A stretch of DNA of 64,000 nt from a virus. The DNA is taken from IMG/VR virus record IMGVR_UViG_3300046007_008377, positions 5,009 through 69,008 of that record; one strand, 5' to 3'. The position numbers were made by a program, and so were the translations under genes. The notes under the pieces are model-generated. The model saw nothing but the letters and a program-made list of their open reading frames with translations, was not told the origin of the DNA and ran no database searches. Below are positions 14,301 through 45,748 of the stretch, piece after piece (position 1 is the stretch's first letter; each line of letters starts with the position of its first letter).

Positions 14301-17300
14301 CAATCTAATGAAGTTGATGTAGTTTTAGGAACTGCAAAATCCGCATCTACAGGAATTGACTTAGACGATCAAAACGGAAATGCTCCAAGAGTGTTATTTA
14401 TGGTTACACCTAACTACTCAGGAAATGTATTTCAACAAATATTAGGACGTGTATCACGAAGAAACACAAAATCACCTGCTCAAATAAGATTGTTGTTTAA
14501 CGAAAGCAATATTGACGCAAGAAGAAAGCAAATTGTAAACGGTAAATTACAAACATTAAAGGCTATTCAAGAAGGTGTTATTGACGATGAAATAGAAATT
14601 GACATTCAAGAAGCTCCTGCGCCTTCTGCTGAAGTAACTGTTAATTTAGAAGGCATAACTCTTGAAGACATTTCTGAAAAAGCATTTGCGGTAAAAGGAG
14701 ATAATACAAAATTTATAAAAGACGATATTAAAGCTCTTGGAGGCAGATATAATCCTAAATACGGTTGGATTTTTCCCAAGTCTAGAAAAGCAGAAGTTCA
14801 AGAAATGCTTAATAAACTTTCTGATAAAAACCAACCAAGCGAAGAGGCTAAAAAACTTTCAGATAAAGTTAGAAATCTTAAAATTGATTTAGGGAAAATG
14901 GGAGAAGGTGGCTTACAAAGCAATCCATTAGGTCTTCCAGTTGGTATTTGGAACGTTTCCATGGATATTATTGCTACTTCTATTGACGCAGGAATGGAAA
15001 TTGGCGAAGCGATAAAAAAAGCCATTGCTTATATTGAAAAAAACAACAAAGGAGTTTTTGATAAAATAAAATTTGCAAACGTCATTAATAATTCTTTAGC
15101 AAATAATAACATTATTTTAAACGAAACTACAAGTCTTGATTTAAAACAAAAAAAAATACGAGGACGTTTTTTAAATGAAGCACAAGCAAATAAATTACAA
15201 AAAGAAATAGAAAGTAAATACGTTACAGACAAGCCTATTGAACTTTTTTCAAAAGAAAAAGATGATATTAGAATGGCTCTGTTTAATTATGAAAATCCTA
15301 TAGCTGAAAAAAATTCTAATGGAGTTAACCTAAGAATTGCTACAGGATTAATAAGAACAAACGAAGAAGGTGTTAGAGAAAAAACATATTTACTTTATGC
15401 CGACGGAAAAATTGTCGGAGAGTTTTATTCTGTAGATGATGTAAAAAAAGTTATAAAGTTAATAGAAGATAATTTAGTTAAAGAAATTCCTGAGTTTAAC
15501 AGTCAACAAATCAAAGATAATGTAAACGCCGAAGTTGACAGAATTGCTCAAAAAGTAAAAGACCTTCTTCCTGGAATAAAAGACCCTGATTTAAAACTTC
15601 AAGGACTTTCTCAAGACGATTTAATTGATTTAGTGGCTAATGCTGTAAAAGCGTTGATTAGCAAAGGAATTGATATAAATGACGCAATTCAACAAGTAGT
15701 AGCATCTATAAAAGAAAGATTTAATGTAGATGTTGACCAAGACCTTGTAAAAGCAAAATTAAATATTACTAATATTCCTCAAGATTTTGAACGCGAACAA
15801 GGTAGAAAATCTGTTGCGGGCAGAATGGCTTCTGGGAATAGCGCCATAATTAAAAGAGCAATCGCCAACAATTCTCTTGATTACGAAATTGAAAATCAAA
15901 AAGAAGCTAAGGAAAAGGCAGATGCGTTTGTAGATGAAGTAGGTTTTAATAATGCTTTAATTGCTGTTAGAGACGGATTAGTTGACGGAGGACAAGGTGC
16001 TTTTATTTACGCAAGAGCAATTGAAATATTAGAGCAAGAAATAAACACTTTAAAAGGCGAAGACAAGCTTGATGCGGTTGCCGATTATATGAAATTACTC
16101 GATGAAATAGCTGTTGAATTAGACCTTCGTTCAAGAAAATACGGTCAATTTATTTCTGCATTAGCTAATATTTATTATTCATCTAAAGGTCGTTATAATC
16201 TTACCAAAATGGTTAAAGATTACAAGGCAGAAAATAAAGGCGTGATTAGCAAAGAAGTCCTAGAAAAACTTAAAAACGTAGAGGAAAAACTTAAAGAAAG
16301 CGAAGCTAAATTAGCCGAATTAGAAACTAAAAAACGTATTGAAGAAGAAAACGAAGCGTTTAATAATATTCTTGAATCAGTTGCTCGCAGAAAAGCAATT
16401 AACACAAACGCTAAGATAACCGACAAACAAAAATTAAAAGCGTTTGCTGACAAACTTCGTTCTTTTAAAATTTCAAATTTAGGCGGAACTAATGTAGCAA
16501 CTCCATATAGCGTTGTTTACGATTTAGCAATTGAAGCGGCAGCACAAGCACTTGAATTAACAGGAGCCGTTTCTGACGCCATAAAAGCAGGTGTTGAATC
16601 TATTCGAAAGGCTAATTTGTCAAAAGACGAACAGCAACAAGCCCTATCTGATTTGTTTGATTTATTTGATGATTCTGACGTTACTGAAAACACAAGTCAA
16701 AAAGGAATGATGTCGGTTAACGATGAAGGTATGTTACGTATTCCTCATTCGTTAATTAGAGAAAAAGTAGAAAACGGAATTGACAATATTGAAGATTTGG
16801 TTTCTGAATTAATGGCAGACGTAAAAGAATTGTTTCCTGATTCAGACTTTACAGAAAGACAAGTTCGAGATGCTGTTACTGGTTATGGTAAAATTTCAAA
16901 CCCTACTTCTGATGAAATAGAAAATCAAATTTCCATAATAAAATCAATTGGAAAAATTGCTTCTGGAATAGAAGATGCCAATAAAGGACAAAGACCATTG
17001 CGCTCAGGACAACAACGTAGAGAACCTACTATGAAAGAGCGTACTGAAATGAAGAAATTAAAGGCGCTGTTAAGAGATTTACCTTTAGCTGATGCTGATA
17101 TTACAAAAGCATATAAAACTGCCTTAGACGCTATTAAAAAACGTTTGTCAAATGAAATTGAAGAATTAGACGAGCAAATTGCTAAAGGAGAAAAAAGAAA
17201 AGGAGAAAAAAGCGTAATTGAGTACGATCAGGAAGCAAAAGACTTAAAAGCAATTCGTGATTCTAAAAAAGCAGAACTTGACGAACTTGTTGGTAAGCCA

Positions 17301-24781: not shown

Positions 24782-25768
24782 TTATTTAGATTTAATAATT
24801 AATTCTTTCTTTTTGTCGTCATACATAACAATTAAGTCAAAATCGTCGTCTGATACCGCAGGCAAACATTCTTCAAGTTGTTCAATTGTTTTTGATTTTT
24901 TAATATGTGCAACAACTCGTTCTCTTTCACTAGCTTTGTTTACAGCGTCTATATCAATCACTACTTCTTCGTGATCTACATATTGTGTTTCTACATCTAC
25001 TGTTTCTTCAGTAGAATTGGCAAATTTGTCATTTTTAATCACCGCTTGGTCGGAAATAAGCGCTTTCTGAACAGAAGTTGACAACGGCGCGTCTTTAGAT
25101 AAGTGCAATTTAATAACCGTTTTAGAAGCCATTTTTTCAAACATATCTTTCCATAGCCCAGTTCCAAACTTTTTGTAAGTCTGCGAGAATTTTTTTGCGT
25201 GAAGTTCAACTTCTTCTTTGGTCATGTAGAAAGTACTTTCAAAACCATTTTGAAGTTTGAAGTAAGAAATAAATCCGACAACTGGCTTAGTTAATCTTTC
25301 TTTATCATCTTGAATCCATCTGAATTTTATTTCTCCAGTCATTCTGTCTACAGATTCAATTTCGCCTTCTCGAACATCAGAATCATTCATTTTTAAGAAT
25401 TGTCCTGATCGCATTGCGAGTTGCTTGAGTCCTTTGGCCGAGATTTGAAACTGAACCATTGTTTTATAAGTGCCGTCGGCTTGTTTTGTATTAAACGGAA
25501 CTAAGAAGCTGTGGCCAATACTCGGGTTAATTGGTAAATCTAGCGTGGCAGCCATTAAAGCAGCAGTATATAGCGAGTTTTGATCCGCATTTGCTAATTG
25601 GCCATTGGAATTTACTACAGAAAGAATTGACGTAACAAAAGCAACACCTTTGTCTTTGTCGCCTAAAACTTCTGCGAATTTATTTTTAATACCATCTGAG
25701 TTAAGAAAATTAGATAGCGCTTTTACCCCAACTACAGGAGCTTGATTTGTTGTTGTTAAGTTTGACAT
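24782..25768 (-). CDS. recT: RecT family recombinase
   Basis: AATLDLPINPSIGHSFLVPF, QFQISAKGLKQLAMRSGQF, FEKMASKTVIK. Confidence 0.9.
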   Translation of the reverse strand: MSNLTTTNQAPVVGVKALSNFLNSDGIKNKFAEVLGDKDKGVAFVTSILSVVNSNGQLANADQNSLYTAALMAATLDLPINPSIGHSFLVPFNTKQADGTYKTMVQFQISAKGLKQLAMRSGQFLKMNDSDVREGEIESVDRMTGEIKFRWIQDDKERLTKPVVGFISYFKLQNGFESTFYMTKEEVELHAKKFSQTYKKFGTGLWKDMFEKMASKTVIKLHLSKDAPLSTSVQKALISDQAVIKNDKFANSTEETVDVETQYVDHEEVVIDIDAVNKASERERVVAHIKKSKTIEQLEECLPAVSDDDFDLIVMYDDKKKELIIKSK

Positions 25769-28040: not shown

Positions 28041-28811
28041 ATGCGAAACAAAAATATGATTGAGCCACAAAATATGCAATGCGCGCAAACGAATGTTATG
28101 CAGCGGTGTGGGTTGTTTGAAGGAAACGCTATGGATTTGCTTTTTGATTTAGAAGATCATAGCGTAGATTTGACAATATTAGATCCCGATTATCAAGATT
28201 GGGATAAACTTTGCGAAGAAGGATTAATTTGCGAAGCTGTAAGAGTTACTAAATTGACTGGAAATATTATTTGTTTTACAAAACAGCCATTTGATTTTAA
28301 TTTAAGAAACGAAGTAAACCATATTTTTAGACGCGAAATAATTTGGACTTTTTCAAACGGTGGAGCTTGGGTAAGTAAAAAAATGCCTTTAGTATCATTC
28401 CAAAAAATATTCTGGTTAACATTATCAAAAGAATTTTATATCGACGTTAGAACAGGATTAGATTACAACGAAAATACAAAAGATATGAAAAGATTAAGTA
28501 AGGTTTTTGGCGATTGGAAAGAAGAAGGAAAAGAATTTGAAAAATCAAAAGAAGGAACTTGGATAAGGGATCACTACCATTTTAATAAACCGCATACAGG
28601 TAAAATACCATCAAAACCGAAGGATTTAATCAAAATATTAATTAAATGCTTTTGCCCTGAAAATGGAGTTGTTTTAGATCCCTTTTTTGGCAGCGGAATA
28701 GTTGGCGATGTGTGCAATAAATTAAATAGAAATTTTATTGCGTTTGAAATTGACGAACAAAGGGTAAAAATGTTCAATGATAAGCAAAGTGCTAATACTT
28801 TCTGCTTATGA
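28041..28811 (+). CDS. N4/N6 DNA methyltransferase, beta class
   Basis: VDLTILDPDY (motif IV variant), PSKP, VLDPFFGSG (motif I), FIAFEID. True start may be a few codons downstream. Confidence 0.85.
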   Translation: MRNKNMIEPQNMQCAQTNVMQRCGLFEGNAMDLLFDLEDHSVDLTILDPDYQDWDKLCEEGLICEAVRVTKLTGNIICFTKQPFDFNLRNEVNHIFRREIIWTFSNGGAWVSKKMPLVSFQKIFWLTLSKEFYIDVRTGLDYNENTKDMKRLSKVFGDWKEEGKEFEKSKEGTWIRDHYHFNKPHTGKIPSKPKDLIKILIKCFCPENGVVLDPFFGSGIVGDVCNKLNRNFIAFEIDEQRVKMFNDKQSANTFCL

Positions 28812-30058
28812 ATATAGTTTTCAATTTGCAAACCGGAAAAAAAAGTAATCAACTGATGATTCGGCTTTATAAAAATAAATTTGACGTTAGTTGTGGTATT
28901 GGAATTGGCCTAGATTTTTGCGACTGGAACCAACAATTACAATCGTCAAATTCGCCAATTATCAACCAAAAGCTATCTGAACTAAAGTCAAACGTTTTAA
29001 AGGCCTACAACGAGAGTTTTATCCAAGGAACAATAATAGATAAGCAATTTGTAAAAAACATCATTTGCGAGTGCTTCAATCGTCCTACAAAGGAAATATC
29101 ACAAGTTAATTCAGATGTATTTATTTATTATTCTGATTTCGCTAATAATTGGCTCAACACGAAAGCGGATCAATGGAAAATTTCGGCCAAACAAACCATG
29201 CCTAAGTATTTGAAAAAGCAATACGAGGACTTTTTAGATTTGTTTTTGGATTACGAGAAAATGCTTGATTCTAAATTAGTATTGAAGGATTTGTGTATTG
29301 ACGATTTTTACAATTTTGCCAATTACCTGGAGGACGAAGGCTACAACCCAAGCACTATAAAAAGAATGCTGTCTAGAATGAAGTTTTTTTGCGCCAGGTG
29401 TAGCGAAGAAGGAATAAAAGTTTCTTCAGCATTTACGCAGCGAGTTTTTGTAGATGATGATAGCGGCGATATTGAAGGCGTTTACTTAAACGAGGAAGAA
29501 ATCGATAGAATTTTCAATTTAGATTTAGATCACGATTTTGTTCTTGATAATATTCGGGACAATTTTTTGATTAGCTGCTGGTCTGGATTAAGAATTTCTG
29601 ACTTCTTATACAATCTAAAAACCGACAATATAAAAGACGGATTCATTTCAATTAAGACACAAAAAACTAAGTCTTTTGTCAAGTTGCCTATTCATGCTCA
29701 CATAAAATTTGTTTTAGACAAACGCTTTGGCCAATTGCCAAAAAAAATGTCAGCTACCGAGTACAATAAGCAATTAAAGGTAGTTTGCCAATTAGCCGGA
29801 ATAGACAATTTAGTTTACGGAAAAGTCTGGAATCCAATAACCAAAAGAAAAGAACGTAAATACTTGCCAAAACATGCTTTTTGCACCTCACACATAGGCA
29901 GAAAGTCTCTGTGTACTAACCTAGCGGGTAAAGTTCCAAAAGAATTAATTCAAAACATATTTGGTTGGGCCGATTCTAAAATGATAGATTACTACAATCA
30001 AACTACAAAAACCGATTACGCAGAAAAGCTACAAGAATATTGGAACGCTAAAAAATAA
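28808..30058 (+). CDS. int: Tyrosine integrase
   Basis: GLRISD, KTQKT, SHIGRKS, FGW, DYY catalytic set; N-terminal arm-binding and SAM-like regions of Bacteroidota integrases. Confidence 0.9.
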   Translation: MNIVFNLQTGKKSNQLMIRLYKNKFDVSCGIGIGLDFCDWNQQLQSSNSPIINQKLSELKSNVLKAYNESFIQGTIIDKQFVKNIICECFNRPTKEISQVNSDVFIYYSDFANNWLNTKADQWKISAKQTMPKYLKKQYEDFLDLFLDYEKMLDSKLVLKDLCIDDFYNFANYLEDEGYNPSTIKRMLSRMKFFCARCSEEGIKVSSAFTQRVFVDDDSGDIEGVYLNEEEIDRIFNLDLDHDFVLDNIRDNFLISCWSGLRISDFLYNLKTDNIKDGFISIKTQKTKSFVKLPIHAHIKFVLDKRFGQLPKKMSATEYNKQLKVVCQLAGIDNLVYGKVWNPITKRKERKYLPKHAFCTSHIGRKSLCTNLAGKVPKELIQNIFGWADSKMIDYYNQTTKTDYAEKLQEYWNAKK

Positions 30059-35835: not shown

Positions 35836-36237
35836 TTAACCTACTATATTAACTTTGCCGTTTGAATAGTAATATTGAAAGGCGTTATTGTCTCCGCAGC
35901 AATTGTATAAAGGCACATAAAAAGAATTATGATAATTTCCTGCATCATAAACGCCTGCAAGCTCAAAACCAGTAAAATTTTGCAAAATATTTTCCTCTCT
36001 ATAGCCAAAAGGATTATTTTTTCTTTCGGATCCTGAAGGAGTTTTCCAAAGATTTTTCAAAAAATCAATTCCCTTTTTATTTTGTTCCGGCGTTAAGGTT
36101 GCCGGATTGTCCCAAATTTCGGATAAATCAATTTTTTCTTTAGCGTTTAACCTTCTGCAAATAAGGTTAATTTGCTGCTCTGTAGCAATACCGGAAAGAA
36201 CTATTTCCGAAATTATTTTTTCACTTGAATTTTTCAT
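35836..36237 (-). CDS. Hypothetical early protein
   Basis: 133 aa ORF. Confidence 0.65.
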   Translation of the reverse strand: MKNSSEKIISEIVLSGIATEQQINLICRRLNAKEKIDLSEIWDNPATLTPEQNKKGIDFLKNLWKTPSGSERKNNPFGYREENILQNFTGFELAGVYDAGNYHNSFYVPLYNCCGDNNAFQYYYSNGKVNIVG

Positions 36238-36241
36238 GATG

Positions 36242-36514
36242 TTAAGAATTTAAAAGGTTTAAAATATCGTTTTCTGTTTCTTGAATGTTGTAAGACTGAA
36301 AGACAATCCCGCCGCCGTATTGTTTGTTATGAAATTTGCGGCCGCCAATTTTACGCGCTCTATTTAACGCGGTGTTATAACGATCTGAAATTTTAGCGCT
36401 AGTATTGAAATAATTTTCTGAATCTTTCAATAAGTTTGAAAAGTGGCAAACATAACGCGGGTTTCCGTTTACGTCGTTGTTTACTCTAGTAAATGAAATT
36501 TTTGTAGTTTCCAT
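36242..36514 (-). CDS. Hypothetical early protein
   Basis: 90 aa; NDVNGNPRYVCHF...YGGGIVFQSYN. Confidence 0.7.
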   Translation of the reverse strand: METTKISFTRVNNDVNGNPRYVCHFSNLLKDSENYFNTSAKISDRYNTALNRARKIGGRKFHNKQYGGGIVFQSYNIQETENDILNLLNS

Positions 36515-36519
36515 GATGA

Positions 36520-36648
36520 TTAAATAATAAAGTTGATAATATTTGTAAATTCGCTAATAATAATAAGAAGGCCACAAGCGGAAAACGCCGTAATAAATAA
36601 CAATATTTTGCCCTGTGTTTGTTCCGGTAATAAATTAAATTTTTTCAT
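36520..36648 (-). CDS. Small single-TM protein (42 aa)
   Basis: MKKFNLLPEQTQGKILLFITAFSACGLLIIISEFTNIINFII. Confidence 0.5.
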   Translation of the reverse strand: MKKFNLLPEQTQGKILLFITAFSACGLLIIISEFTNIINFII

Positions 36649-36652
36649 GGTT

Positions 36653-36814
36653 CTAATTTTTAAAGGTTGTAATAAAAACACTAACAAAGGCCGCCAGGAG
36701 TAACGATAAAAGAACGTAATTAAATAGCGTTTTAGTTGTCATGCAAAACATAAGCGCCACGACTATAAAACTACAAACGGCCAAAAGGAAATAAAGAATA
36801 AATTTTGATTTCAT
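36653..36814 (-). CDS. Small two-TM protein (53 aa), first gene of early operon
   Basis: MKSKFILYFLLAVCSFIVVALMFCMTTKTLFNYVLLSLLLAAFVSVFITTFKN. Confidence 0.55.
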   Translation of the reverse strand: MKSKFILYFLLAVCSFIVVALMFCMTTKTLFNYVLLSLLLAAFVSVFITTFKN

Positions 36815-36846
36815 AATTTTAAATTTTTATTGTTTTAATTCTGAAA

Positions 36847-36854
36847 CAAACGTA
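36847..36854 (-). promoter_or_regulatory. -7 box (TACGTTTG) driving early operon
   Basis: TAnnTTTG 32 nt upstream of 36814. Confidence 0.6.
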
Positions 36855-37829
36855 CAACAGCACCACAAACGAAACTAATAAAATCGTTAATCTACATAAA
36901 AAGTCGATGAAATACATCATTGACAAAGTAAAATCCTACAAAAATATAGTGTTGAATAGTGTAAAAGTATCGATAAATAAAGGACTTTTGAAGGTTGCCG
37001 CCTGGAATAGTGTAAATTTGCCAATTAAAGGAAAGCAGCAGACACAAAACAAAGGACCAAAACACAATCCAACAACACCGGGGAACCTGAAGACACAAAA
37101 ACCACGTTTTAAACGATCGTAAACATTAACAGACCGAAATATATATTTTAATGCGTTATTGTTGTTTAATTGTTTTTATATGCAACCTGGAAATATAGAA
37201 ATATATTAATTTATTATAGGATCCGTTTAAATATCTGAAATTTGCCAATAGTCAGAGCGCACCAAGGAACACCCCAAAACAAACACACAACACCATACAA
37301 CAACAATAAAAAAAAATAGCGCGTTTCCTTCACGGTTTTAAATTTCGTGATTGTCGAGTATTTTATGAAAGGTTAATTTAATTTTGTGGAGTTTTGTGCA
37401 ACCTGGAAAGGCGCAACGCTTTAAAAATCAATAATTTGCGCGAGTTTTAAACGGGATCAATAAATTTAGTTATCGGAGTAAACAACAAAGATAATTTATA
37501 ATTGATTGAAAGCTAGTAAGTTAGTGTTTTAATATACAATCGTATTAAGATTATAAATGTGAGATGAAGCAGCAGCAACCGAACATAAAAACGGCGTAAG
37601 TTTATACATAAAGGCCTGGATATCAAGTATAAAAAGGCAAAACATTTACAAAATATAATCCAAAAGAAAGGCCCCCGCCATCAAAAAAACCGTTTCCCTT
37701 TTGCCGATTGCCGCCCAGGTCCGTGGGTATAATCCCTACCTACCACATACTCTCACCACATTTAAAAAACGAACCTACAATTTCTAAAACCTCTGTAAAA
37801 CAAAGGGCTAATGCGGTATTCTATATAAA

Positions 37830-37951
37830 AGTGAACGATTTGGCTTAAAAAGGGCAAAAGTGAACGATTAGTGAACGATTTGGATATAAAAGTGAACGAT
37901 TCAATAAAAAAAAGTGAACGATTAGGTATTGTTATTTGAACGTCGTTCACT
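37830..37951. repeat. Array of AGTGAACGATT repeats (5 direct plus 1 inverted 9-mer)
   Basis: Copies start at 37830, 37859, 37870, 37891, 37913; inverted TCGTTCACT at 37943-37951. Confidence 0.9.
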
Positions 37952-37958
37952 ATATTTG
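37951..37958 (+). promoter_or_regulatory. -7 box (TATATTTG)
   Basis: Abuts repeat array, upstream of HTH gene 37987. Confidence 0.65.
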
Positions 37959-37986
37959 CATATTAGTAATTATAAATGTTTAAATA

Positions 37987-38364
37987 ATGATTGATCAGGA
38001 AAAGGATTTCAGGCATAAAAAGATTTTGGATTTACATAACCAGGGTAAGAGCATTGCGGCTATTGCTAAGGAAATGGTAATGAGTAAGGGTGGAGTTCAC
38101 AAAATACTTTCTAGTTTGATTATAAAAGGAGATTCTCCTAAAAAGGAGCCTATAGCTAAGGTTAAGTTATCTGGTCAAGAAGAAAGGTTTAGTTCGTTTG
38201 TAGGATATGAGAGAACTGATGTAAATCAATATGTACATAAGGAGACTGGTGAGATTGTAAATATAGCTTTTGTAAAGGCTAAGAAAGCTGGCGAATTTGG
38301 ATATTTTGTGAAGGTATCTAGTGTTGAAAAAAAATCGACCGCAAGCGGTAATGAAGTAATCTAG
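37987..38364 (+). CDS. HTH DNA-binding protein
   Basis: ILDLHNQGKSIAAIAKEMVMSKGGVHKIL. Confidence 0.7.
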   Translation: MIDQEKDFRHKKILDLHNQGKSIAAIAKEMVMSKGGVHKILSSLIIKGDSPKKEPIAKVKLSGQEERFSSFVGYERTDVNQYVHKETGEIVNIAFVKAKKAGEFGYFVKVSSVEKKSTASGNEVI

Positions 38365-38369
38365 AAATC

Positions 38370-38627
38370 ATGACAGAGATAAGAGATCATAAGTACGAAT
38401 TTAAAACGTACAATGGCAGAGTGAAAATTTACGTTGATGGGTATGTGATGTTTTGTTTTAATCAGATTGATTTTGCGGGATATTACGCCTATAAGGACGA
38501 TCGTAATCTCTACGGACTCGATATTTATATGAATCGAGAAAAAGCGGGACAATGCCAGATGGAGATTTATTTTAAGACTAAGGAGAATTGGATTGGAGTT
38601 CTTAAATTGCTAGACGAAAACATGTAA
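38370..38627 (+). CDS. Hypothetical protein
   Basis: 85 aa ORF. Confidence 0.6.
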   Translation: MTEIRDHKYEFKTYNGRVKIYVDGYVMFCFNQIDFAGYYAYKDDRNLYGLDIYMNREKAGQCQMEIYFKTKENWIGVLKLLDENM

Positions 38628-38636
38628 TTAATAAAT

Positions 38637-38846
38637 ATGGAAGATTCAAAACGTTGCGCGATTGAGCTTGTTGAGAAAATGCGTTTATCTAGTTTAAAGA
38701 TTACTAAAAAAGACGCTAAGGTTTGTGCTTCAATTGCGGCTCAATACATTATTAATGCAAATCCGCACAGCAATCCTCTAAATACGGAAGTACATTCTAC
38801 TATTGGATTTTGGCAAGAAGTTAAACAAGAAATAGAGAAATTATAA
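38637..38846 (+). CDS. Hypothetical phage protein
   Basis: 69 aa; AKVCASIA...FWQEVKQEIEKL. Confidence 0.65.
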   Translation: MEDSKRCAIELVEKMRLSSLKITKKDAKVCASIAAQYIINANPHSNPLNTEVHSTIGFWQEVKQEIEKL

Positions 38847-38850
38847 AATT

Positions 38851-38911
38851 GGAAAGATGGCTGAATGGTTAAAGCTGAAAGAGTGTGCAGGTTCGAGTCC
38901 TGCTCTTTCCC
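38851..38911 (+). ncRNA. tRNA-like RNA lacking an anticodon arm (pseudo-tRNA or mimic)
   Basis: Acceptor GGAAAGA/TCTTTCC, D arm GCTG-AATGGTTA-AAGC, T arm GCAGG-TTCGAGT-CCTGC; only 11 nt between D and T arms. Confidence 0.75.
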
Positions 38912-39006
38912 CTACAAGTTGATCATTGGTCAGCAACACAACTTTGATAAGTGCTTGCACACGCGAGATTTTAATTACTAGGAATTGTTAAAATAATAAA
39001 GAAATT

Positions 39007-39333
39007 ATGCCAGATATATCAATGTGTTCTAATGCACTATGCCATTCTAAAGATTATTGCTATAGATTTACAGCTACTCCTAATCCCCATAGACAAAGTT
39101 ATATGGGTTTTGGTCCTAAAGAAGGAGAAGATAAATGCGATGATTTTTGGCCAAATAATAAAGACTCTGAAAAATGTAAACTAAATGGAGTTAAACGTGA
39201 AGGTGAGATATGCAATTTAGAACAATGCAACTATCCTAAATGCACCCAAGAAAATTATTGTAAGTATTGTCATCAAACAGATGGTGTACATAAAATGGGT
39301 TGTGAAACTAGAAAAATACAAATAAACTTATGA
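39007..39333 (+). CDS. Cys-rich hypothetical protein
   Basis: MPDISMC...C...CYRF; multiple CxxC. Confidence 0.65.
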   Translation: MPDISMCSNALCHSKDYCYRFTATPNPHRQSYMGFGPKEGEDKCDDFWPNNKDSEKCKLNGVKREGEICNLEQCNYPKCTQENYCKYCHQTDGVHKMGCETRKIQINL

Positions 39334-39569
39334 AACAAACAGCAGTAGAATGGTTAATTTCTAAAATAGAGGTTAATTCAAATCCTTCACTTACACAAAA
39401 AGAAATGATTGTATACATTGAACAAGCCAAAGAAATGGAAAAGCAACAGATAATTGATGCTCAATCCTATGCAATATCAAAAGCTGATATGACAAATAAT
39501 AGAGGTTTTTTTGATTGCGAACAATACTACAACGAAACATTTAACCTTTCACAACAAGATAAACCCTAA
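39330..39569 (+). CDS. Hypothetical phage protein
   Basis: MKQTAVEWL...QAKEMEKQQIIDA...EQYYNETF. Confidence 0.7.
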   Translation: MKQTAVEWLISKIEVNSNPSLTQKEMIVYIEQAKEMEKQQIIDAQSYAISKADMTNNRGFFDCEQYYNETFNLSQQDKP

Positions 39570-39586
39570 ATTTTGGGGTTTATGTA

Positions 39587-39817
39587 ATGACAAAAAGTAA
39601 GATGACACTAAAAGAAAAGTTTGAACAATATGCAAAGGATGAAATTTGGCGAACCAGAAACTATAATGCAGAAGAATGTGAACTTATAGCAGATGAATTT
39701 GCTATTGGATTTGCAGAGTGGTATTTGAATTTATCTAAATCAGATGATTGGGAAAAATTTGATTACAACACAAATGAAAAACTACTAGAAATCTATAAAA
39801 AAGAAAAAGGATTGTGA
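39587..39817 (+). CDS. Hypothetical phage protein
   Basis: ADEFAIGFAEW...LLEIYKKEKGL. Confidence 0.65.
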   Translation: MTKSKMTLKEKFEQYAKDEIWRTRNYNAEECELIADEFAIGFAEWYLNLSKSDDWEKFDYNTNEKLLEIYKKEKGL

Positions 39818-40173
39818 TTTACTTTAAATATTCAACAAGGCTTGTAATATTATTTGATAATATAGTTATCAAAATACCTATAAGCAGAAGAGGTTATCTA
39901 CAAGGAATCAATGAGAAATACGTTTGGGATAAGTATAAAGATATTGATTTATTAGCGGAACTAAAATGGGTATTTATAGGTGTAGTATGTCAAAAGAGAT
40001 ATGATGCTGTTAAATCAATACCAAATGTAGTTGTAAGACGTATTAAATCAAAAGTTCCTGAATTTGATTTTGATAACTGCGATTTACATAACAGTAAAAA
40101 CTGGGGAATAGAAAATAAAGAATACATCTTACTTGACTATGGTATCAACAAACACATTGCAAGTTTATATTAA
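39814..40173 (+). CDS. Miniature protein-kinase-like protein
   Basis: VIKIP, E of a helix-C-like segment, DLHNSKNWG, LLDYG in 119 aa; GTG start. Confidence 0.5.
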   Translation: MIYFKYSTRLVILFDNIVIKIPISRRGYLQGINEKYVWDKYKDIDLLAELKWVFIGVVCQKRYDAVKSIPNVVVRRIKSKVPEFDFDNCDLHNSKNWGIENKEYILLDYGINKHIASLY

Positions 40174-40232
40174 AACAAATAAACCTATAAAACGGCAGTA
40201 AATGTAAAAAAGTGCCAATAATCAGATAAAAA

Positions 40233-40586
40233 ATGAAATTTGAAACTTGGTTAGACGACAATTATCCGTACAGAAATAGAAATTACAGGAATGAAAAATT
40301 GTACGGCAAAAGCAAATATGACGAAACTTATTTATACAACGAACTATTAGAAATTTTTAAAAAAGAAATTATGATTCCATTACATTACCCGCAGCAATAC
40401 GATGTTATAGATTTTGTAAGCGACAACGGCTTAAATTTTAACGAGGGAAACGTTATTAAGTACATTACGCGCGCTAGAAAAAAAGGAACGCATTTAATTG
40501 ATTTAGAGAAGGCCTTGGATTATATCCAGCGAGAAATTAAGATTGTGAGAGAGAAAGAATTAAAATTAATAGAAAACGATCGATGA
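40233..40586 (+). CDS. DUF3310-like protein (with N-terminal extension)
   Basis: PLHY, LNFNEGNVIKYITRARKKG, DLEKALDY. Confidence 0.8.
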   Translation: MKFETWLDDNYPYRNRNYRNEKLYGKSKYDETYLYNELLEIFKKEIMIPLHYPQQYDVIDFVSDNGLNFNEGNVIKYITRARKKGTHLIDLEKALDYIQREIKIVREKELKLIENDR

Positions 40587-40870
40587 TTTCCAAAGAACAA
40601 TTTGCAAACGCAATAGAGGCTATAAGATTGCAGCAATACGAAGATAAAAAGAATAGTCAATTGCTTCAAGAAGCGTTTTCAATTAACGAATTTCCGATAT
40701 TTCAGAATGATAAATTGGTTAATACAATAATAGACTTGCTTTCTTTTTGGTTTGACAAAGAAGAATTGCAACACTATTGTTTTGATTGTGATTTTGGTAA
40801 AACTGGACCTGAATCTGAATGGGAAACACCTGAAGAATTATATAACAAACTGCTTAAAAATAAAAAATGA
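40583..40870 (+). CDS. Hypothetical protein
   Basis: 95 aa, coupled. Confidence 0.65.
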   Translation: MISKEQFANAIEAIRLQQYEDKKNSQLLQEAFSINEFPIFQNDKLVNTIIDLLSFWFDKEELQHYCFDCDFGKTGPESEWETPEELYNKLLKNKK

Positions 40871-40998
40871 CTGACCAAGAAAAATTAAATGAGCTATTGG
40901 CTAAAAGAACAAAACTTATGCTTAAAGGATCAAACGACGAAAAGTTAAACGACAAAATTCGTGAATTGCAAAAAATAATTCGAGATGCAAGAAGATAA
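40867..40998 (+). CDS. Small hypothetical protein (43 aa)
   Basis: MTDQEKLNELLAKRTKL..., ATGA-coupled. Confidence 0.5.
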   Translation: MTDQEKLNELLAKRTKLMLKGSNDEKLNDKIRELQKIIRDARR

Positions 40999-41788
40999 AA
41001 GAAAGTACAACGGCCGACGCGCAGGAACTACTAAAAACAAAATTCAAGGCGCATTTGCTGAGAAAAAAGATACTTTCGGAAGCGCTAAAGAAAAGAGAAA
41101 TAGGTTCCAAACCGAATCGATGGAAGAATTTCTTAAAATTAAACCAGGAGAAACTTTTGAGCAATGGGAAAAACGCACTTCTAAAAAAAGAATCCATGGC
41201 GTTACAAAAAAGAACAATTTGTCAATTGCCAAAAACGGAAAAATAGTCGTCGATAGAGAACGATTAACCGGAATGGCCAAAGAGAAGCAAGTTATAATTC
41301 GCCACAAATTTATAGAGCGTCCGTATGACTTTTTGGAAAATTATGCTTTTATTATGCGCTGGGCTAGTATTAGGTACAACATCTCAAAAGACGACATTGA
41401 AATTGCTTTTTTCTTTTATGGAAAAGGAATGTTTACCAAGGAAGAATTTACGCGCGTATGCGTTCAATTAGGAACCGTAAAAGGTGTTTGGACTAGATTT
41501 GTAAATAAGCCTTACATTACCGCAGCAGTTTTAGTAACCAAAGATAATGTAGTCAAAGAAATGGAATATTATCAATTAACGGCTGAATTTTCAAGATTGC
41601 TATTGGCGGTTTATGGCGGTTTGTCCAAAGTAAACAAACTAACTTTGACAATTAGATCATCTGCTCAGTACAAAAGAAACGTAGTGCATAAAGAACTAAA
41701 TGATTTTTTAGAACAACTTAATCGAGAAGTTGACCAAACAATAAAAGGAGAATTAATTCCTTATTTTGACAAGAAAAATATTGAATAA
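40985..41788 (+). CDS. Hypothetical protein
   Basis: 267 aa; basic N-terminus, possible winged-helix C-terminal half. Confidence 0.6.
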   Translation: MQEDKRKYNGRRAGTTKNKIQGAFAEKKDTFGSAKEKRNRFQTESMEEFLKIKPGETFEQWEKRTSKKRIHGVTKKNNLSIAKNGKIVVDRERLTGMAKEKQVIIRHKFIERPYDFLENYAFIMRWASIRYNISKDDIEIAFFFYGKGMFTKEEFTRVCVQLGTVKGVWTRFVNKPYITAAVLVTKDNVVKEMEYYQLTAEFSRLLLAVYGGLSKVNKLTLTIRSSAQYKRNVVHKELNDFLEQLNREVDQTIKGELIPYFDKKNIE

Positions 41789-41909
41789 CTTTTAATAATT
41801 GTAGCAGTAGCAAACTGCATAAAACGCATATTGCAATATGCAATATTGATTACAAAAAAACTGAAATTTAATTTAAATCCCGATTGCAAGGATAAGTGCT
41901 AGAATTACA

Positions 41910-42164
41910 ATGAACAAATCAGAATTAATTAAAGTTGTTGCTTATAAAGCGTCAGTAACTCAAGAAACGGCAAAAAAAGTTATCAATGCGACTTTTGAAA
42001 TTATTGAAAAAGCAACCATGGAAGAAGGTAGAGTTGCAATTGCCGAATTTGGCGTTTTCAAAAAGCATGAAGCGGCTCCAAGAGAAGGAAGGAATCCAGC
42101 AACAGGACAAAAATTACAAATTCCGGCAAAAACGCTAATTAAGTTTAAACCTTCACAAGCATAA
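41910..42164 (+). CDS. hup: HU/IHF-family DNA-binding protein
   Basis: MNKSELI...FGVF...REGRNPATG...IPAK...FKP. Confidence 0.95.
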   Translation: MNKSELIKVVAYKASVTQETAKKVINATFEIIEKATMEEGRVAIAEFGVFKKHEAAPREGRNPATGQKLQIPAKTLIKFKPSQA

Positions 42165-44188: not shown

Positions 44189-45748
44189 TTAATTAGCGTT
44201 TTGAATTAATCTAGCATTTGTGAGAACGTTGTCAGTCATTAGCATTGTATTACTTGCAGAAACAGCGTTAATTAAGGCGTGTTTGATTGCTTTTGTACTA
44301 TCCACAATTCCCGCGTCAAACATATTGGTTTTTTTGTAATTTTTTACGTCATATCCGATTGGATAATCTCCAATTGCTTGTCTAACTTCTCTTAAACTTG
44401 CGTTTTCCATTAATTTATTAATTGGAGATACACAAACTGTTTTGCAAATATCTCCTAATTCTAATTTTGAAGCGTCAAATAAAGCAATTCCTCCGCCAGC
44501 AACAACTCCTTCTTCTTTTGCAGAACGAACAGCAGAAACAGCATCGTCTACACGATCGATTTTTTCCTGCAATTCACTTTCGATAATTGATCCGATTTTA
44601 ATAATAGAAACACCGCCTACTAATTTAGCAATTCTTTCGCGCAAATACTTTTCTTCTACTTGGCTTTTGGTAGTTTTGATTGTTTCTTTTATTTCAGCAA
44701 TTTTACCATCTACAATTTTTTGAACATAATCGTTTTTTACCGAAGTGATAATTGTATCGGCTTTACCAATGATAATTTTTTCACATTCGCCAATAAATTC
44801 ACCTTCTCTACCTTCAAAATTATCTCCAGACAAAGTAGTAATTGGCTGCGTTCCTAAAATACAAGCAAGGTCATTGATAAAATCAAGACGTTTTTTACCA
44901 ACTCCAGGCGCGTGAACAACACAAAACGGTACGCCTTTCTGAATTACATTTTGAAGCACTACATCTCTAACTGCATGTGCCATATCGGAAATAAATACCA
45001 GCGGTCTTTTGTTGTCGTGTGCATATTGCATAAATGGAAGCACTTGTTTTACCGTTTTAAATTCAATAGTAGAACAAACTACAAGCGGATTTTCGTCAAA
45101 AACACAAGTTCTATCAGAAAACACGTTTACAAATCGCTCGTCAGAATATCCTGATTCTACGAGTGTTCCGTCTATAAATTCTAGGTAAGATTCATCTGTA
45201 TTACTACGCGAATGAGCAACAGAACCGTCAACCCCTGCTTTAATATATGCTTCACTTACAATTTTTGCAATTTCTACATCGCCATTGGCAGAAGTCAAGG
45301 CTACATCATAAATTAATTTGTCGGTAATTGGAGTTGATATACTATCTAAATGCGCTAATATTAAATCTCTTGATTCTTCAACTTCTCGCTTTACATCAAT
45401 TGGCGATTTTCCATTTTTTACAGCCTCAACCGAATTTTTGAAAAACGCATAAAGTAAAATAATTGTATTTGTAGTGCTATCTCCTGCAAATTTTACAGTT
45501 TTTTCACTTGCTTCTTTAGCAATTTCTAAAGCAATATTTTCTACTGGATTTTCTAAAAAAATTGATTGGAGTGTTTTGTAACCATCTTTAGTAGGCTCGG
45601 CTCTACCATAATCAGATTCGATAAGTACCGTTCTTCCTCGATAACCGTAAGTAGAAGAAACCACATCAGAAGCTTTTTTAAGACCTGACAATAACAAGTC
45701 TTTTGCATCATCACCAGAGATAATGTCTTTTAAAATTCTTTCGCTCAT
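44189..45748 (-). CDS. groEL: Chaperonin GroEL-like
   Basis: TKDG, AGDSTT, SANGD, ERIAKL, DRVDDAVSAVRSAKEEGVVAGGG, AGIVD. Confidence 0.95.
   Translation of the reverse strand: MSERILKDIISGDDAKDLLLSGLKKASDVVSSTYGYRGRTVLIESDYGRAEPTKDGYKTLQSIFLENPVENIALEIAKEASEKTVKFAGDSTTNTIILLYAFFKNSVEAVKNGKSPIDVKREVEESRDLILAHLDSISTPITDKLIYDVALTSANGDVEIAKIVSEAYIKAGVDGSVAHSRSNTDESYLEFIDGTLVESGYSDERFVNVFSDRTCVFDENPLVVCSTIEFKTVKQVLPFMQYAHDNKRPLVFISDMAHAVRDVVLQNVIQKGVPFCVVHAPGVGKKRLDFINDLACILGTQPITTLSGDNFEGREGEFIGECEKIIIGKADTIITSVKNDYVQKIVDGKIAEIKETIKTTKSQVEEKYLRERIAKLVGGVSIIKIGSIIESELQEKIDRVDDAVSAVRSAKEEGVVAGGGIALFDASKLELGDICKTVCVSPINKLMENASLREVRQAIGDYPIGYDVKNYKKTNMFDAGIVDSTKAIKHALINAVSASNTMLMTDNVLTNARLIQNAN

What the first reader, a model, noticed from the sequence alone, without database searches (positions are those of the whole stretch)
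38851..38911. tRNA-like RNA with perfect acceptor, D and T arms but no anticodon arm
The 61-nt element has a perfect 7-bp acceptor stem, the D-loop GG, and a canonical TTCGAGT T-loop with a perfect 5-bp stem. The anticodon and variable arms are replaced by 11 unpaired nt (TGAAAGAGTGT). No encoded CCA. Clean retention of the elbow and acceptor with loss of the decoding arm suggests a tRNA mimic: an RNase P/Z processing signal, a decoy for tRNA-targeting toxins or anticodon nucleases, or a synthetase/EF-Tu ligand. A recent deletion pseudogene is the alternative. A possible hairpin (AAGTTG...CAACTT) follows at about 38916-38944.
Basis: partly seen in the sequence, partly recalled or inferred. Interest (0 to 1): 0.7.

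Follow-up and report, generated by a model that had tools for sequence, protein, structure and literature searches.

The report
Phage tRNA-like RNA lacking anticodon arm
A 69-kb lake-water phage carries a 61-base gene that folds like a tRNA without its decoding arm, and the same arm-less design recurs with compensating stem changes in many other uncultured phages, so it looks like a selected non-decoding tRNA look-alike and not a broken tRNA.

Summary
Observation confirmed. Window 38851-38911 (+) scores 45.9 bits on Rfam tRNA (cut-off 29), with the anticodon arm skipped. ARAGORN finds no tRNA. The element lies between two + strand ORFs of a 69,008-base IMG/VR phage record and is the record's only tRNA-like hit.

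It is not an assembly error: a 2,036-base contig at depth 229 and a 178-base contig from another study match it exactly.

It is not a recent one-off deletion. An unrelated phage contig (L381) has a 61-base element of the same design. Compared with ours, 4 of its 7 acceptor pairs and 1 T-stem pair are changed on both sides, and none is broken.

At least 41 loci hold arm-less elements of 53-66 bases. In 16 distinct 61-63-base elements with six different acceptor stems, 240 of 240 cells pair, and 10 of 15 pairs changed on both sides.

The elements have the same flanks as real tRNA genes of these phages: T at -1 and C74-A/T75-A76, never CCA.

Best reading (0.4): it is cut out by tRNA-maturation enzymes and punctuates the transcript, like a plant mitochondrial t-element. 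Main rival (0.3): the released RNA acts in trans as a tRNA mimic. The function was not tested, and no RNA data were available.

The parts
38850..38850 (+). T at position -1, just before the predicted RNase P cut
   Evidence: Read. -1 is T in 83 of 107 unique family elements and in 128 of 189 canonical tRNAs of the same phage loci.
38851..38857 (+). Acceptor stem, 5' strand (GGAAAGA)
   Evidence: All 7 acceptor pairs covary in the family.
38858..38875 (+). T8, G9 and the D arm: stem GCT/AGC, loop GAATGGTTAA with A14 and G18G19
   Evidence: T8, G9, G10, C11, A14, A15 and both Gs are invariant in 16 arm-less elements.
38876..38886 (+). 11-nt single-stranded linker (TGAAAGAGTGT) in place of the anticodon and variable arms
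   Evidence: 8 of 11 bases are identical to the linker of L381 (TTAAATAGTGT), at the same length.
38887..38903 (+). T arm: stem GCAGG/CCTGC, loop TTCGAGT (T54 T55 C56 R57 A58)
   Evidence: The first two T-stem pairs covary in the family.
38904..38911 (+). Acceptor stem, 3' strand (TCTTTCC), and discriminator C
38912..38914 (+). CTA at positions 74-76: C74 is encoded, CCA is not
   Evidence: Position 74 is C in 105 of 107 family elements and in 176 of 189 canonical tRNAs of these phage loci. None of the 189 encodes CCA.
38916..38944 (+). Function unknown; not shown to belong to the element.
   Evidence: No T-run, and no excess stability of the region.
38954..38977 (+). Weak terminator-like hairpin CTTGCACACGCGAG followed by ATTTTAATTA
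   Evidence: 3 terminator-like sites found in 4 kb against 1.9 expected, so this is not significant.
38637..38846 (+). Upstream ORF, 69 aa (phrog_21441, unknown function). It stops 4 nt before the element.
39007..39333 (+). Downstream ORF, 108 aa, Cys-rich (phrog_20586, unknown function). It starts 95 nt after the element.

Best explanation
The element is a real, selected RNA gene. It belongs to a family of phage-encoded tRNA-like RNAs that keep the acceptor stem, D arm, T arm and the elbow-forming bases. Where the anticodon and variable arms should be, they have only a short single strand (11 nt here).

Proposed mechanism:
1. It is transcribed on the + strand together with the small ORFs around it.
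2. It folds into the tRNA top half plus core.
3. RNase P cuts it at its 5' end, after T(-1).
4. Its 3' end is finished by the same pathway as the real tRNAs of these phages (C74 encoded, CCA added later).

The cuts divide the polycistronic message, as t-elements do in plant mitochondria. They also release a ~61-nt non-decoding RNA.

Shown here: the sequence and its fold; the structure under selection; the arm-less design recurring across phages; and the same flanks as real tRNA genes.

Inferred: transcription, cleavage and CCA addition. Also inferred is that punctuation, and not the released RNA, is the selected function.
For: 1. tRNA-like features: RF00005 scores 45.9 bits across the whole model with the anticodon arm skipped. 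U8, A14, G18G19 and T54-T55-C56-R57-A58 are present.

2. Real in the DNA: an identical 2,036-nt contig at depth 229 (run X2, possibly the source). A 178-nt contig from another study (X8) is identical across 38872-39049.

3. Same design elsewhere:
- L381 is 61 nt. Compared with ours, 4 of 7 acceptor pairs and 1 T-stem pair are changed on both sides, and none is broken. The linker is 8/11 identical. tblastx at E <= 1e-5 returned no match between the L381 locus and the window.
- A third copy in X8 (a 691-nt contig) aligns to 38858-38902 with 5 mismatches and no gaps, between AGTCAGG and CCTGACT.

4. Family covariation. In 16 distinct 61-63-nt elements with six acceptor stems, aligned by MAFFT (A4), 240 of 240 cells pair. 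10 of 15 pairs are changed on both sides, and 0 of 500 shuffles reach any measure. RNAalifold predicts the same three helices.

5. Conservation in syntenic phages. L380 and L412 are 81-82% identical in 2.5-kb flanks. The element is 60/63 identical, and the one stem change is compensated.

6. Processing context:
- -1 is T in 83 of 107 elements and position 74 is C in 105 of 107.
- The 189 canonical tRNAs of the same loci look alike: T(-1) in 128, C74 in 176, none encoding CCA.
- Ours has T(-1), C74, T75 and A76.

7. Placement. Same-strand ORFs lie closer (median 109 nt upstream, 98 nt downstream) than opposite-strand ORFs (283 and 281 nt). In 31 of 100 cases a same-strand ORF stops within 20 nt upstream. 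In 27 of 92 cases one starts within 30 nt downstream.

8. Precedent. Plant mitochondrial t-elements carry the GGTTCRANYCC motif and direct RNase P/Z cuts at mRNA ends (PMC1920247, passages read). Ours reads GGTTCGAGTCC.
Against: - No RNA data: no listed holder run is RNA. Transcription and cleavage are therefore unproven.
- Punctuation needs little more than an acceptor/T-arm helix. It does not by itself explain why the full D arm and core are kept. Nor does it explain why, in the larger arm-less subgroup, the D arm, linker and T arm are almost invariant while the acceptor stem differs at up to 6 of 7 pairs. That pattern fits a trans-acting product with a core-binding partner at least as well.
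- Co-orientation and tight spacing with ORFs hold for ordinary phage tRNA genes too, so they do not separate cis from trans roles.
- In this window the downstream ORF starts 95 nt after the element, not directly after it.
- No ortholog of this very element sits at this locus in the relatives examined: 0 of 8 closest loci.
- The subgroup with this D arm and linker has only three known copies.
Confidence: 0.4

Rival explanations
1. Trans-acting tRNA mimic. The selected product is the released, CCA-tailed, anticodon-less RNA. It occupies a factor that reads the tRNA elbow or acceptor end, for example a host tRNA-directed defence nuclease or toxin, or a tRNA-processing or tRNA-modifying enzyme. 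It cannot be used in decoding.
For: - The complete tRNA core is kept, not only the acceptor/T helix.
- In the 62-63-nt subgroup, the D arm, linker and T arm are nearly invariant across five acceptor stems and unrelated flanks.
- The flanks match those of real tRNA genes, so maturation to a tRNA-like end is plausible.
- Some contigs carry many family elements: about 10 with the AGTCAGG-type shell in 3.5 kb of L253.
- tRNA-cleaving defences and phage tRNAs that counter them are documented (PMC11555353, PMC10802454, PMC13096335; only search listings and starts of abstracts seen).
Against: - No partner is identified, and no protein family is shared across family contexts. The largest neighbour cluster covers 10 of about 110 loci.
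- The documented counter-defence tRNAs are decoders that replace cleaved ones, which an arm-less RNA cannot do.
- There is a single copy in this phage.
- No expression data.
Confidence: 0.3
2. Anticodon-less amino-acid acceptor. The RNA is charged by a synthetase that ignores the anticodon (LeuRS for the A73, Leu-type members). It then delivers or sequesters the amino acid or the enzyme outside decoding.
For: - Most family members have A73: 93 of 107. Many carry the D arm GGCGGAAT(T)GGTAGACGC. That this is the canonical bacterial tRNA-Leu D arm is recalled, not taken from a call.
[quoted passage not shown] The anticodon arm is dispensable for aminoacylation, and deleting it lowers affinity only 2.5-fold (PMC2377443, abstract and passages read).
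- Acceptor stems vary freely while the core stays fixed.
Against: - This window's element has C73, not A73. Its D arm is closest to those of type II (serine-type) tRNAs.
- It lacks the long variable arm. That SerRS uses this arm, and that C73 marks tRNA-His together with a G at -1, are recalled rules. Here -1 is T.
- No charging data exist.
Confidence: 0.1
3. Neutral relic: a phage tRNA gene (serine-type) that lost about 26 nt, covering the anticodon arm and the 5' strand of the variable arm, and is decaying.
For: - The 5' and 3' parts resemble type II tRNAs with a GGAAAG acceptor. Up to 41 of 50 flank positions are identical, and the top-ranked matches have serine anticodons.
- Several such tRNAs have a variable arm with loop TGAAAG. 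The linker TGAAAG-AGTG-T could therefore be a variable-arm loop plus its 3' strand.
- There is no ortholog at this locus in relatives.
- The exact-pattern scans found no second copy with this acceptor stem.
Against: - Two other copies of the same arm-less design have a different but fully paired acceptor stem and a compensated T-stem pair. Any deletion is therefore old, and the stems have been kept since.
- All 15 stem pairs, the elbow bases, T(-1) and C74 are intact.
- The wider arm-less class shows 100% pairing with 10 covarying pairs.
- It is conserved above its flanks in syntenic phages.
Confidence: 0.07
4. DNA-level site: an attachment site of the phage's tyrosine integrase, or a recombination module boundary. 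It would act as double- or single-stranded DNA, not as RNA.
For: - The phage encodes an integrase at 28808-30058.
- The element sits at a mosaic junction. Contigs of related strains leave the window's sequence at 38833-38848 and rejoin at 39002 or 39333-39334.
- Presence or absence differs between relatives.
- One contig (L381's record) ends inside a second family element.
Against: - tRNA-gene attachment sites carry the 3' part of a tRNA, not both halves minus the middle (recalled rule).
- The element lies 8.8 kb from the integrase gene.
- Compensatory changes that keep three helices, plus tRNA D- and T-loop motifs, point to a folded RNA.
- The same elements occur in tRNA clusters and arrays.
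Confidence: 0.05

Closest known systems
t-elements of plant mitochondria (tRNA-like processing signals)
   Same: Both are non-canonical tRNA-like folds with the conserved T-arm motif GGTTCRANYCC, embedded in longer transcripts next to coding regions. In mitochondria they direct RNase P and RNase Z cuts that make mRNA ends, and the excised t-elements can receive non-encoded C/CA (PMC1920247, passages read).
   Different: t-elements are organellar and individually degenerate. This element is in a phage and keeps a complete D arm and elbow. It belongs to a family with strong covariation and near-invariant core sequence. No cleavage has been shown for it.
Canonical phage-encoded tRNAs
   Same: Acceptor stem, D arm, T arm and elbow bases. 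It also has the same gene flanks as the real tRNAs of these phage contigs: T(-1), C74, A/T75, A76 and no CCA. It passes the Rfam tRNA cut-off.
   Different: It has no anticodon arm or variable arm, so it cannot decode. ARAGORN rejects it and 41 of 41 short relatives.
tRNA-like domain of tmRNA
   Same: Both have a tRNA top half without an anticodon. tmRNA is processed by RNase P and used outside normal decoding (PMC3985003, start of abstract only).
   Different: tmRNA is several times longer, with a tag reading frame. Its pseudoknots and its G3-U70 alanine identity pair are recalled features. This element is 61 nt with A3-U70, and ARAGORN's tmRNA search finds nothing.
Bacterial Y RNA-like YrlA, mammalian mascRNA and gammaherpesvirus tRNA-like RNAs
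   Same: They are non-decoding RNAs that mimic tRNA and are recognised by tRNA-processing enzymes. For YrlA only the title and the start of the abstract were seen (PMC4201824). The mammalian and herpesvirus cases are recalled.
   Different: In YrlA the tRNA-like module is internal and joined to a Ro-binding stem (recalled). mascRNA keeps a small anticodon-like arm (recalled). None is a phage family with a bare linker in place of both lower arms.
Phage T4 stable RNAs 'species 1 and 2' in the tRNA cluster
   Same: They are small phage RNAs of unknown function that are made together with tRNAs (recalled; no call).
   Different: They are longer (about 120-140 nt, recalled). No sequence relation was tested here.

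Membership tests
Canonical tRNA (decoder) | 7-bp acceptor stem, D arm with G18G19, T arm with T54-T55-C56 | tested here: met
   RF00005 scores 45.9 bits against a cut-off of 29.
Canonical tRNA (decoder) | Anticodon stem with a 7-nt loop presenting an anticodon | tested here: not met
   18 model positions are replaced by 6 nt. The 11-nt linker is unpaired in the energy fold. ARAGORN finds 0 genes.
Canonical tRNA (decoder) | 3' CCA end and aminoacylation | not testable with these tools
   CCA is not encoded (CTA follows the discriminator). None of 189 real tRNAs in these phage loci encodes it either.
Arm-less phage tRNA-like RNAs (family defined here) | 53-66 nt. A 7-bp acceptor, T8, a D hairpin and a T arm GGTTCGARTCC, joined by a short unpaired linker with no anticodon arm. 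| tested here: met
   Model R1 scores 69 bits. The element aligns without stem gaps to 15 other distinct elements. All 15 of its pairs are standard pairs.
Arm-less phage tRNA-like RNAs (family defined here) | Flank signature: T at -1, C at 74, A or T at 75, A at 76 | tested here: met
   The window has T, C, T, A. The discriminator is C here, whereas 93 of 107 family members have A.
t-element-like processing signal | T-arm motif GGTTCRANYCC inside a non-canonical cloverleaf | tested here: met
   GGTTCGAGTCC at 38890-38900. The motif is as given in PMC1920247.
t-element-like processing signal | Transcript ends that coincide with the ends of the element (RNase P/Z cleavage) | not testable with these tools
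   No RNA run was listed.
tmRNA | Tag reading frame, with pseudoknots and a G3-U70 alanine identity pair (these two recalled) | tested here: not met
   ARAGORN finds no tmRNA. The element is 61 nt long, and pair 3-70 is A-T.
Leucine-accepting tRNA core (LeuRS identity set) | A73, plus U8-A14, G18-U55 and G19-C56 (PMC2377443) | tested here: not met
   The tertiary-pair bases are present, but the discriminator is C, not A. Most AGTCAGG-type relatives do have A73.
Phage attachment site in a tRNA gene | A copy of the 3' part of a host tRNA next to the integrase gene (recalled rule) | tested here: not met
   Both halves of the cloverleaf are present. The element lies 8.8 kb from the integrase gene at 28808-30058. 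Host junctions were not available.

The most novel reading that the evidence does not exclude
Uncultured phages widely encode a class of anticodon-less tRNA core mimics in which the released RNA, not the cut, is the functional product. It would be matured and CCA-tailed like a tRNA. It would then act in trans, either as a decoy or competitor for host factors and immune nucleases that read the tRNA elbow or 3' end, or, in the A73 Leu-type members, as a chargeable acceptor that never enters decoding. The window's element would be a divergent member with its own acceptor stem and C73.
Probability: 0.3. Interest if true: 0.85.

Novelty: new variant of a known kind. Interest (0 to 1): 0.7.

Why it matters
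tRNA look-alikes that do not decode are known from organelles, eukaryotic nuclei, animal and plant viruses, and tmRNA. I found no description of a phage family that keeps the whole tRNA core but drops both lower arms. The full-text searches were made; none turned it up. No Rfam family other than tRNA matches the element.

The comparative signal is clean: six acceptor stems, 100% pairing, and conservation above the flanks. This gives a concrete and cheap set of experiments on how phages use the host's tRNA-maturation machinery. Two uses are in question: cutting their own messages, or making non-decoding tRNA mimics at a time when tRNA-directed immunity is a very active topic.

It also shows that gene finders such as ARAGORN miss this class entirely (0 of 41), so phage annotations under-report it.

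Tried and rejected
1. Exact-pattern scans for a second copy of this element.
- Viral contigs: 0 hits.
- Metagenome contigs: 10 hits, all ordinary full-length tRNAs.
- An acceptor-agnostic scan for this D arm plus a short gap: only L381.

2. Source tRNA.
- Genome contigs with the exact 5' 18-mer: 0 hits.
80 were listed and read. All are 82-90-nt type II tRNAs, and the best matches 41 of 50 flank positions.
- From this I considered a single ~26-nt deletion of a serine tRNA. I kept it only as an old origin, not as a recent pseudogene.

3. Relatives found through the flanking proteins (103 loci).
- blastn of the 61-mer found no full-length homolog.
- RF00005 hit 7 of 40 related records, none at the syntenic place.
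- The region is a mosaic of small ORFs.

4. Cultured phages (INPHARED).
- Megablast of 36000-42000: no match.
- The 61-mer gave only partial T-arm matches.
- An AGTCAGG 63-mer: no match.
- An 85-nt family member gave partial matches only.
- The odd tRNAs of Tenacibaculum phage pT24 are not family members.
- The host remains unknown.

5. Antisense idea. The reverse complement of the linker has 3 other matches with 1 mismatch in the window, against 1.8 expected. This is not significant.

6. Promoter and terminator scans around the element were at chance level.

7. Conserved protein partner. None was found. The largest neighbour cluster is a 267-aa protein in 10 of about 110 loci. Arm-less elements share neighbours only within syntenic groups.

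8. RNA evidence. No RNA holder was listed, so nothing can be said on expression. Some parts of the stretch have no cover in runs X6-X8, and I draw nothing from that.

9. Supplementary files of papers were closed and not consulted. They could hold tRNA-like gene lists that bear on the novelty claim.

10. Not used: complex prediction, structure prediction, and the protein-homology and representative searches.

Full report
WHAT IS THERE

The window is bases 5009-69008 of a 69,008-base IMG/VR virus record that CheckV rates 100% complete. It has about 32% G+C.

It encodes a large terminase subunit, virion proteins, a GroEL-like chaperonin and a tyrosine integrase. It also encodes RecT, NinG, a DNA methylase, two HNH endonucleases and a 2,718-aa protein with a helicase domain.

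The finding lies in a 160-nt gap between two + strand ORFs: 38637-38846 (69 aa) and 39007-39333 (108 aa, Cys-rich). Both belong to PHROG families of unknown function.

The sequence reads, 5' to 3':
- GGAAAGA, acceptor 5' strand
- TG
- GCT-GAATGGTTAA-AGC, D arm
- TGAAAGAGTGT, linker
- GCAGG-TTCGAGT-CCTGC, T arm
- TCTTTCC, acceptor 3' strand
- C, discriminator
- CTA

Rfam's tRNA model matches 38851-38911 at 45.9 bits (cut-off 29) from model position 1 to 71. It jumps over the 18 positions of the anticodon arm. ARAGORN calls nothing in the window, and the element is the only RF00005 match in the whole record.

Thermodynamic stability alone is unremarkable (z = -1.66). The downstream hairpin at 38916-38944 is real but has no terminator features.

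IS IT REAL DNA?

Public lake-water runs hold the stretch. Contigs from four of them were laid on the window.
- Run X2, which may be the source sample, has a 2,036-nt contig at depth 229 that is identical across 38400-39357.
- Run X8, from another study, has a 178-nt contig identical across 38872-39049. That span covers the D-arm/linker/T-arm junction.

An assembly artefact is therefore excluded.

IS IT A ONE-OFF DELETION?

Exact-pattern scans found no second copy with the same acceptor stem. The 5' and 3' parts resemble type II tRNAs with a GGAAAG acceptor. Several of those have a variable arm with loop TGAAAG, so an old deletion of about 26 nt from a serine-type tRNA is a possible origin.

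Three results show that the arm-less state is maintained and not decaying.

First, run X8 holds a 691-nt contig that aligns to 38858-38902 with 5 mismatches and no gaps. It is flanked by AGTCAGG on one side and T-CCTGACT-A on the other. That makes a second 61-nt arm-less element with a different, fully complementary acceptor stem.

Second, IMG/VR contig L381 carries AGTCAGG-TG-GCTGAATGGTTATAGC-TTAAATAGTGT-ACAGGTTCGAATCCTGT-CCTGACT-A.
- Compared with ours, 4 of 7 acceptor pairs and the first T-stem pair differ on both sides, and none is broken.
- The linker is 8/11 identical and of the same length.
- tblastx at E <= 1e-5 returned no match between the L381 locus and the window.

Third, the design is common.
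- A scan for GTCAGG...CCTGAC shells with a short interior gave 31 stretches with elements of 53-66 nt.
- An acceptor-agnostic scan for the commonest arm-less core gave 19 stretches. Nine new loci among them carry four further acceptor stems: ACCAGAG/CTCTGGT, AGCGCAG/CTGCGCT, AGTAAGG/CCTTACT and TCTCATG/CATGAGA. All are perfectly paired.

COVARIATION

I aligned 16 distinct 61-63-nt arm-less elements with MAFFT, so the alignment is not fitted to any structure (A4).
- 240 of 240 cells form standard pairs.
- 10 of 15 pairs show changes on both sides (28 cells).
- None of 500 column shuffles reaches any measure.
- Sliding the partners by 1 to 3 columns drops pairing to 31-39%.
- RNAalifold predicts the same three helices on its own.

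A wider, model-fitted alignment of 46 hits gives 97.1% pairing and 13 of 15 covarying pairs. That alignment leans towards the structure and may include some true tRNAs.

In syntenic phages (L380 against L412, L413, L414, L416 and L418) the 2.5-kb flanks are 81-82% identical. The element is 60/63 identical, and its one stem change, at acceptor pair 4, is compensated. It is passed by the class, though not at this window's own locus.

THIS LOCUS IN RELATIVES

The region is a mosaic of small accessory ORFs.
- The closest IMG/VR relative (L003) ends inside the downstream gene, so it says nothing about this place.
- In the next eight loci (L004-L011) the Cys-rich gene is directly preceded by coding sequence, not by a tRNA or tRNA-like element.
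- A ~94%-alike lake strain (X6 and X7 contigs) has 205 other letters in place of 38834-39001. The visible start of that replacement reads like a short leader followed by ATG.
- Related records do carry family elements elsewhere, with yet other acceptor stems (GAAGGAG, AGCACAG, TCCCGGA, GTCAGGG). L004 has a compact 66-nt form.

The element therefore behaves as an accessory cassette at a recombination-prone junction.

HOW IS IT HANDLED?

Over 107 unique GTCAGG-shell elements:
- the base before position 1 is T in 83;
- the discriminator is A in 93;
- position 74 is C in 105;
- position 75 is A, T, G or C in 55, 32, 11 and 9;
- position 76 is A in 79.

As a control I took 189 unique canonical tRNAs that ARAGORN calls in the same loci, excluding shell members, intron calls and undetermined anticodons.
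- They show T(-1) in 128, A73 in 123, C74 in 176, A or T at 75 in 177, and A76 in 141.
- None encodes CCA.

The arm-less elements thus sit in the same gene context as the real tRNAs of these phages. This window's element has T(-1), C74, T75 and A76 as well.

The elements point the same way as neighbouring ORFs and often abut them. 14 of 35 arm-less elements lie within 1.5 kb of a canonical tRNA, and 21, like ours, do not.

MECHANISM

The data show a folded RNA under purifying selection that looks to the cell like a tRNA from the elbow upward and cannot decode.

The most economical account is co-transcription with the flanking genes, RNase P cleavage at 38850/38851, and tRNA-type 3' finishing. 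That divides the message and frees a ~61-nt RNA. This is what t-elements do in plant mitochondria (PMC1920247). I give 0.4 to punctuation as the selected role.

The main rival (0.3) is that the freed RNA is the point, as a trans-acting mimic. The evidence for it is that the full core is kept and is nearly invariant in sequence, linker included, while the acceptor stem changes freely. A cleavage signal alone does not need that. The constraint could instead reflect what it takes to fold an L-shape without an anticodon stem.

A charged, anticodon-less acceptor is attractive for the A73, Leu-type members. LeuRS identity rests on A73 and the tertiary core, and the anticodon arm is dispensable for charging (PMC2377443). 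This window's element has C73 and a Ser-like D arm, so I give that reading 0.1 here.

A neutral relic gets 0.07 and a DNA-level site 0.05.

COMPARISON AND NOVELTY

The element fails the defining test of a decoder tRNA, because it has no anticodon arm. It also fails the tests for tmRNA and for a LeuRS-type identity set. It meets the structural definition of a t-element-like signal and of the arm-less family defined here.

No Rfam family other than tRNA matches it. Seven full-text searches found no description of phage tRNA-like genes without an anticodon arm. Supplements were closed, and subscription journals are not covered.

I rate it a new variant of a known kind (non-decoding tRNA-like RNAs), with interest 0.7.

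LIMITS
- There are no expression data, the host is unknown, and no partner is known.
- The family was collected with exact patterns that fix the T loop and, in most scans, the acceptor stem. Counts are therefore lower bounds, and the dominance of AGTCAGG is partly a product of the search.
- The subgroup closest to this window's element has only three known copies.

Noticed in passing
L246-L325; L253:1-3500; G042:1-11000 = L408: There is a much larger set of phage tRNA-like 'shells': AGTCAGG + a Leu-type D arm ... ACAGGTTCGAATCCTGT + CCTGACT + A. The part between the D and T arms varies from about 3 to about 100 nt and is unrelated between copies. ARAGORN calls only 44 of 83, mostly with odd anticodons or 'introns'. 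Some contigs carry arrays, about 10 in 3.5 kb of L253. Model R1 found 217 hits in 100 loci. The role of the variable inserts is unexplained.
   Followed up: partly
Family loci L246-L418: Canonical tRNA genes in these uncultured phage contigs almost always end N73-C74-(A/T)75-A76, one base away from CCA. C74 is present in 176 of 189, C75 in 3 of 189, and 0 of 189 encode CCA. This looks like a lineage-wide rule for 3'-end maturation.
   Followed up: partly
Window 38808-38848 and 39318-39351: Summed contig depth jumps about 6- to 20-fold in these short stretches, and many contigs of other strains join or leave the sequence there. They are the end of the 69-aa ORF and the stop/start overlap after the Cys-rich ORF. 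They behave as conserved module boundaries for cassette exchange.
   Followed up: no
L004:2345-2410, L341:4949-5014, L385:2486-2551, L387:4828-4893: These are compact 66-nt tRNA-like genes with an AGTCAGG acceptor, a shortened D arm and a 4-bp stem that covaries (CCGC/GCGG against CCAC/GTGG). The stem closes a conserved loop that holds CTGATAA. They may be minimal tRNA-Ile(GAU)-like decoders or another non-decoding variant.
   Followed up: no
L381 (record G041), contig end: The contig that holds the closest homolog ends inside a second family element, 65 nt upstream of the first. This suggests tandem copies that break assemblies.
   Followed up: no
L380:5006-5240 against L412: A ~100-nt segment lies downstream of the arm-less element in L380 but upstream of it in L412, L416 and their group. 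The element or the segment has moved locally. In both, a canonical tRNA-Lys(UUU) follows within about 100-170 nt.
   Followed up: no
Window 28808-30058, 24782-25768 (-), 44189-45748 (-), 11325-19481: The phage has a tyrosine integrase, RecT, a GroEL-like chaperonin and a 2,718-aa ORF with a ResIII/DEAD helicase domain. Start regions of the ORFs near the element are A/T-rich, and I saw no Shine-Dalgarno motif by eye.
   Followed up: no
LC168164.1 191520-192477 (L419:5285-6242): Tenacibaculum phage pT24 is annotated with 'tRNA-Sup' and two 'tRNA-Undet' genes in one cluster. They score low on model R1 and are not members of the family described here.
   Followed up: partly
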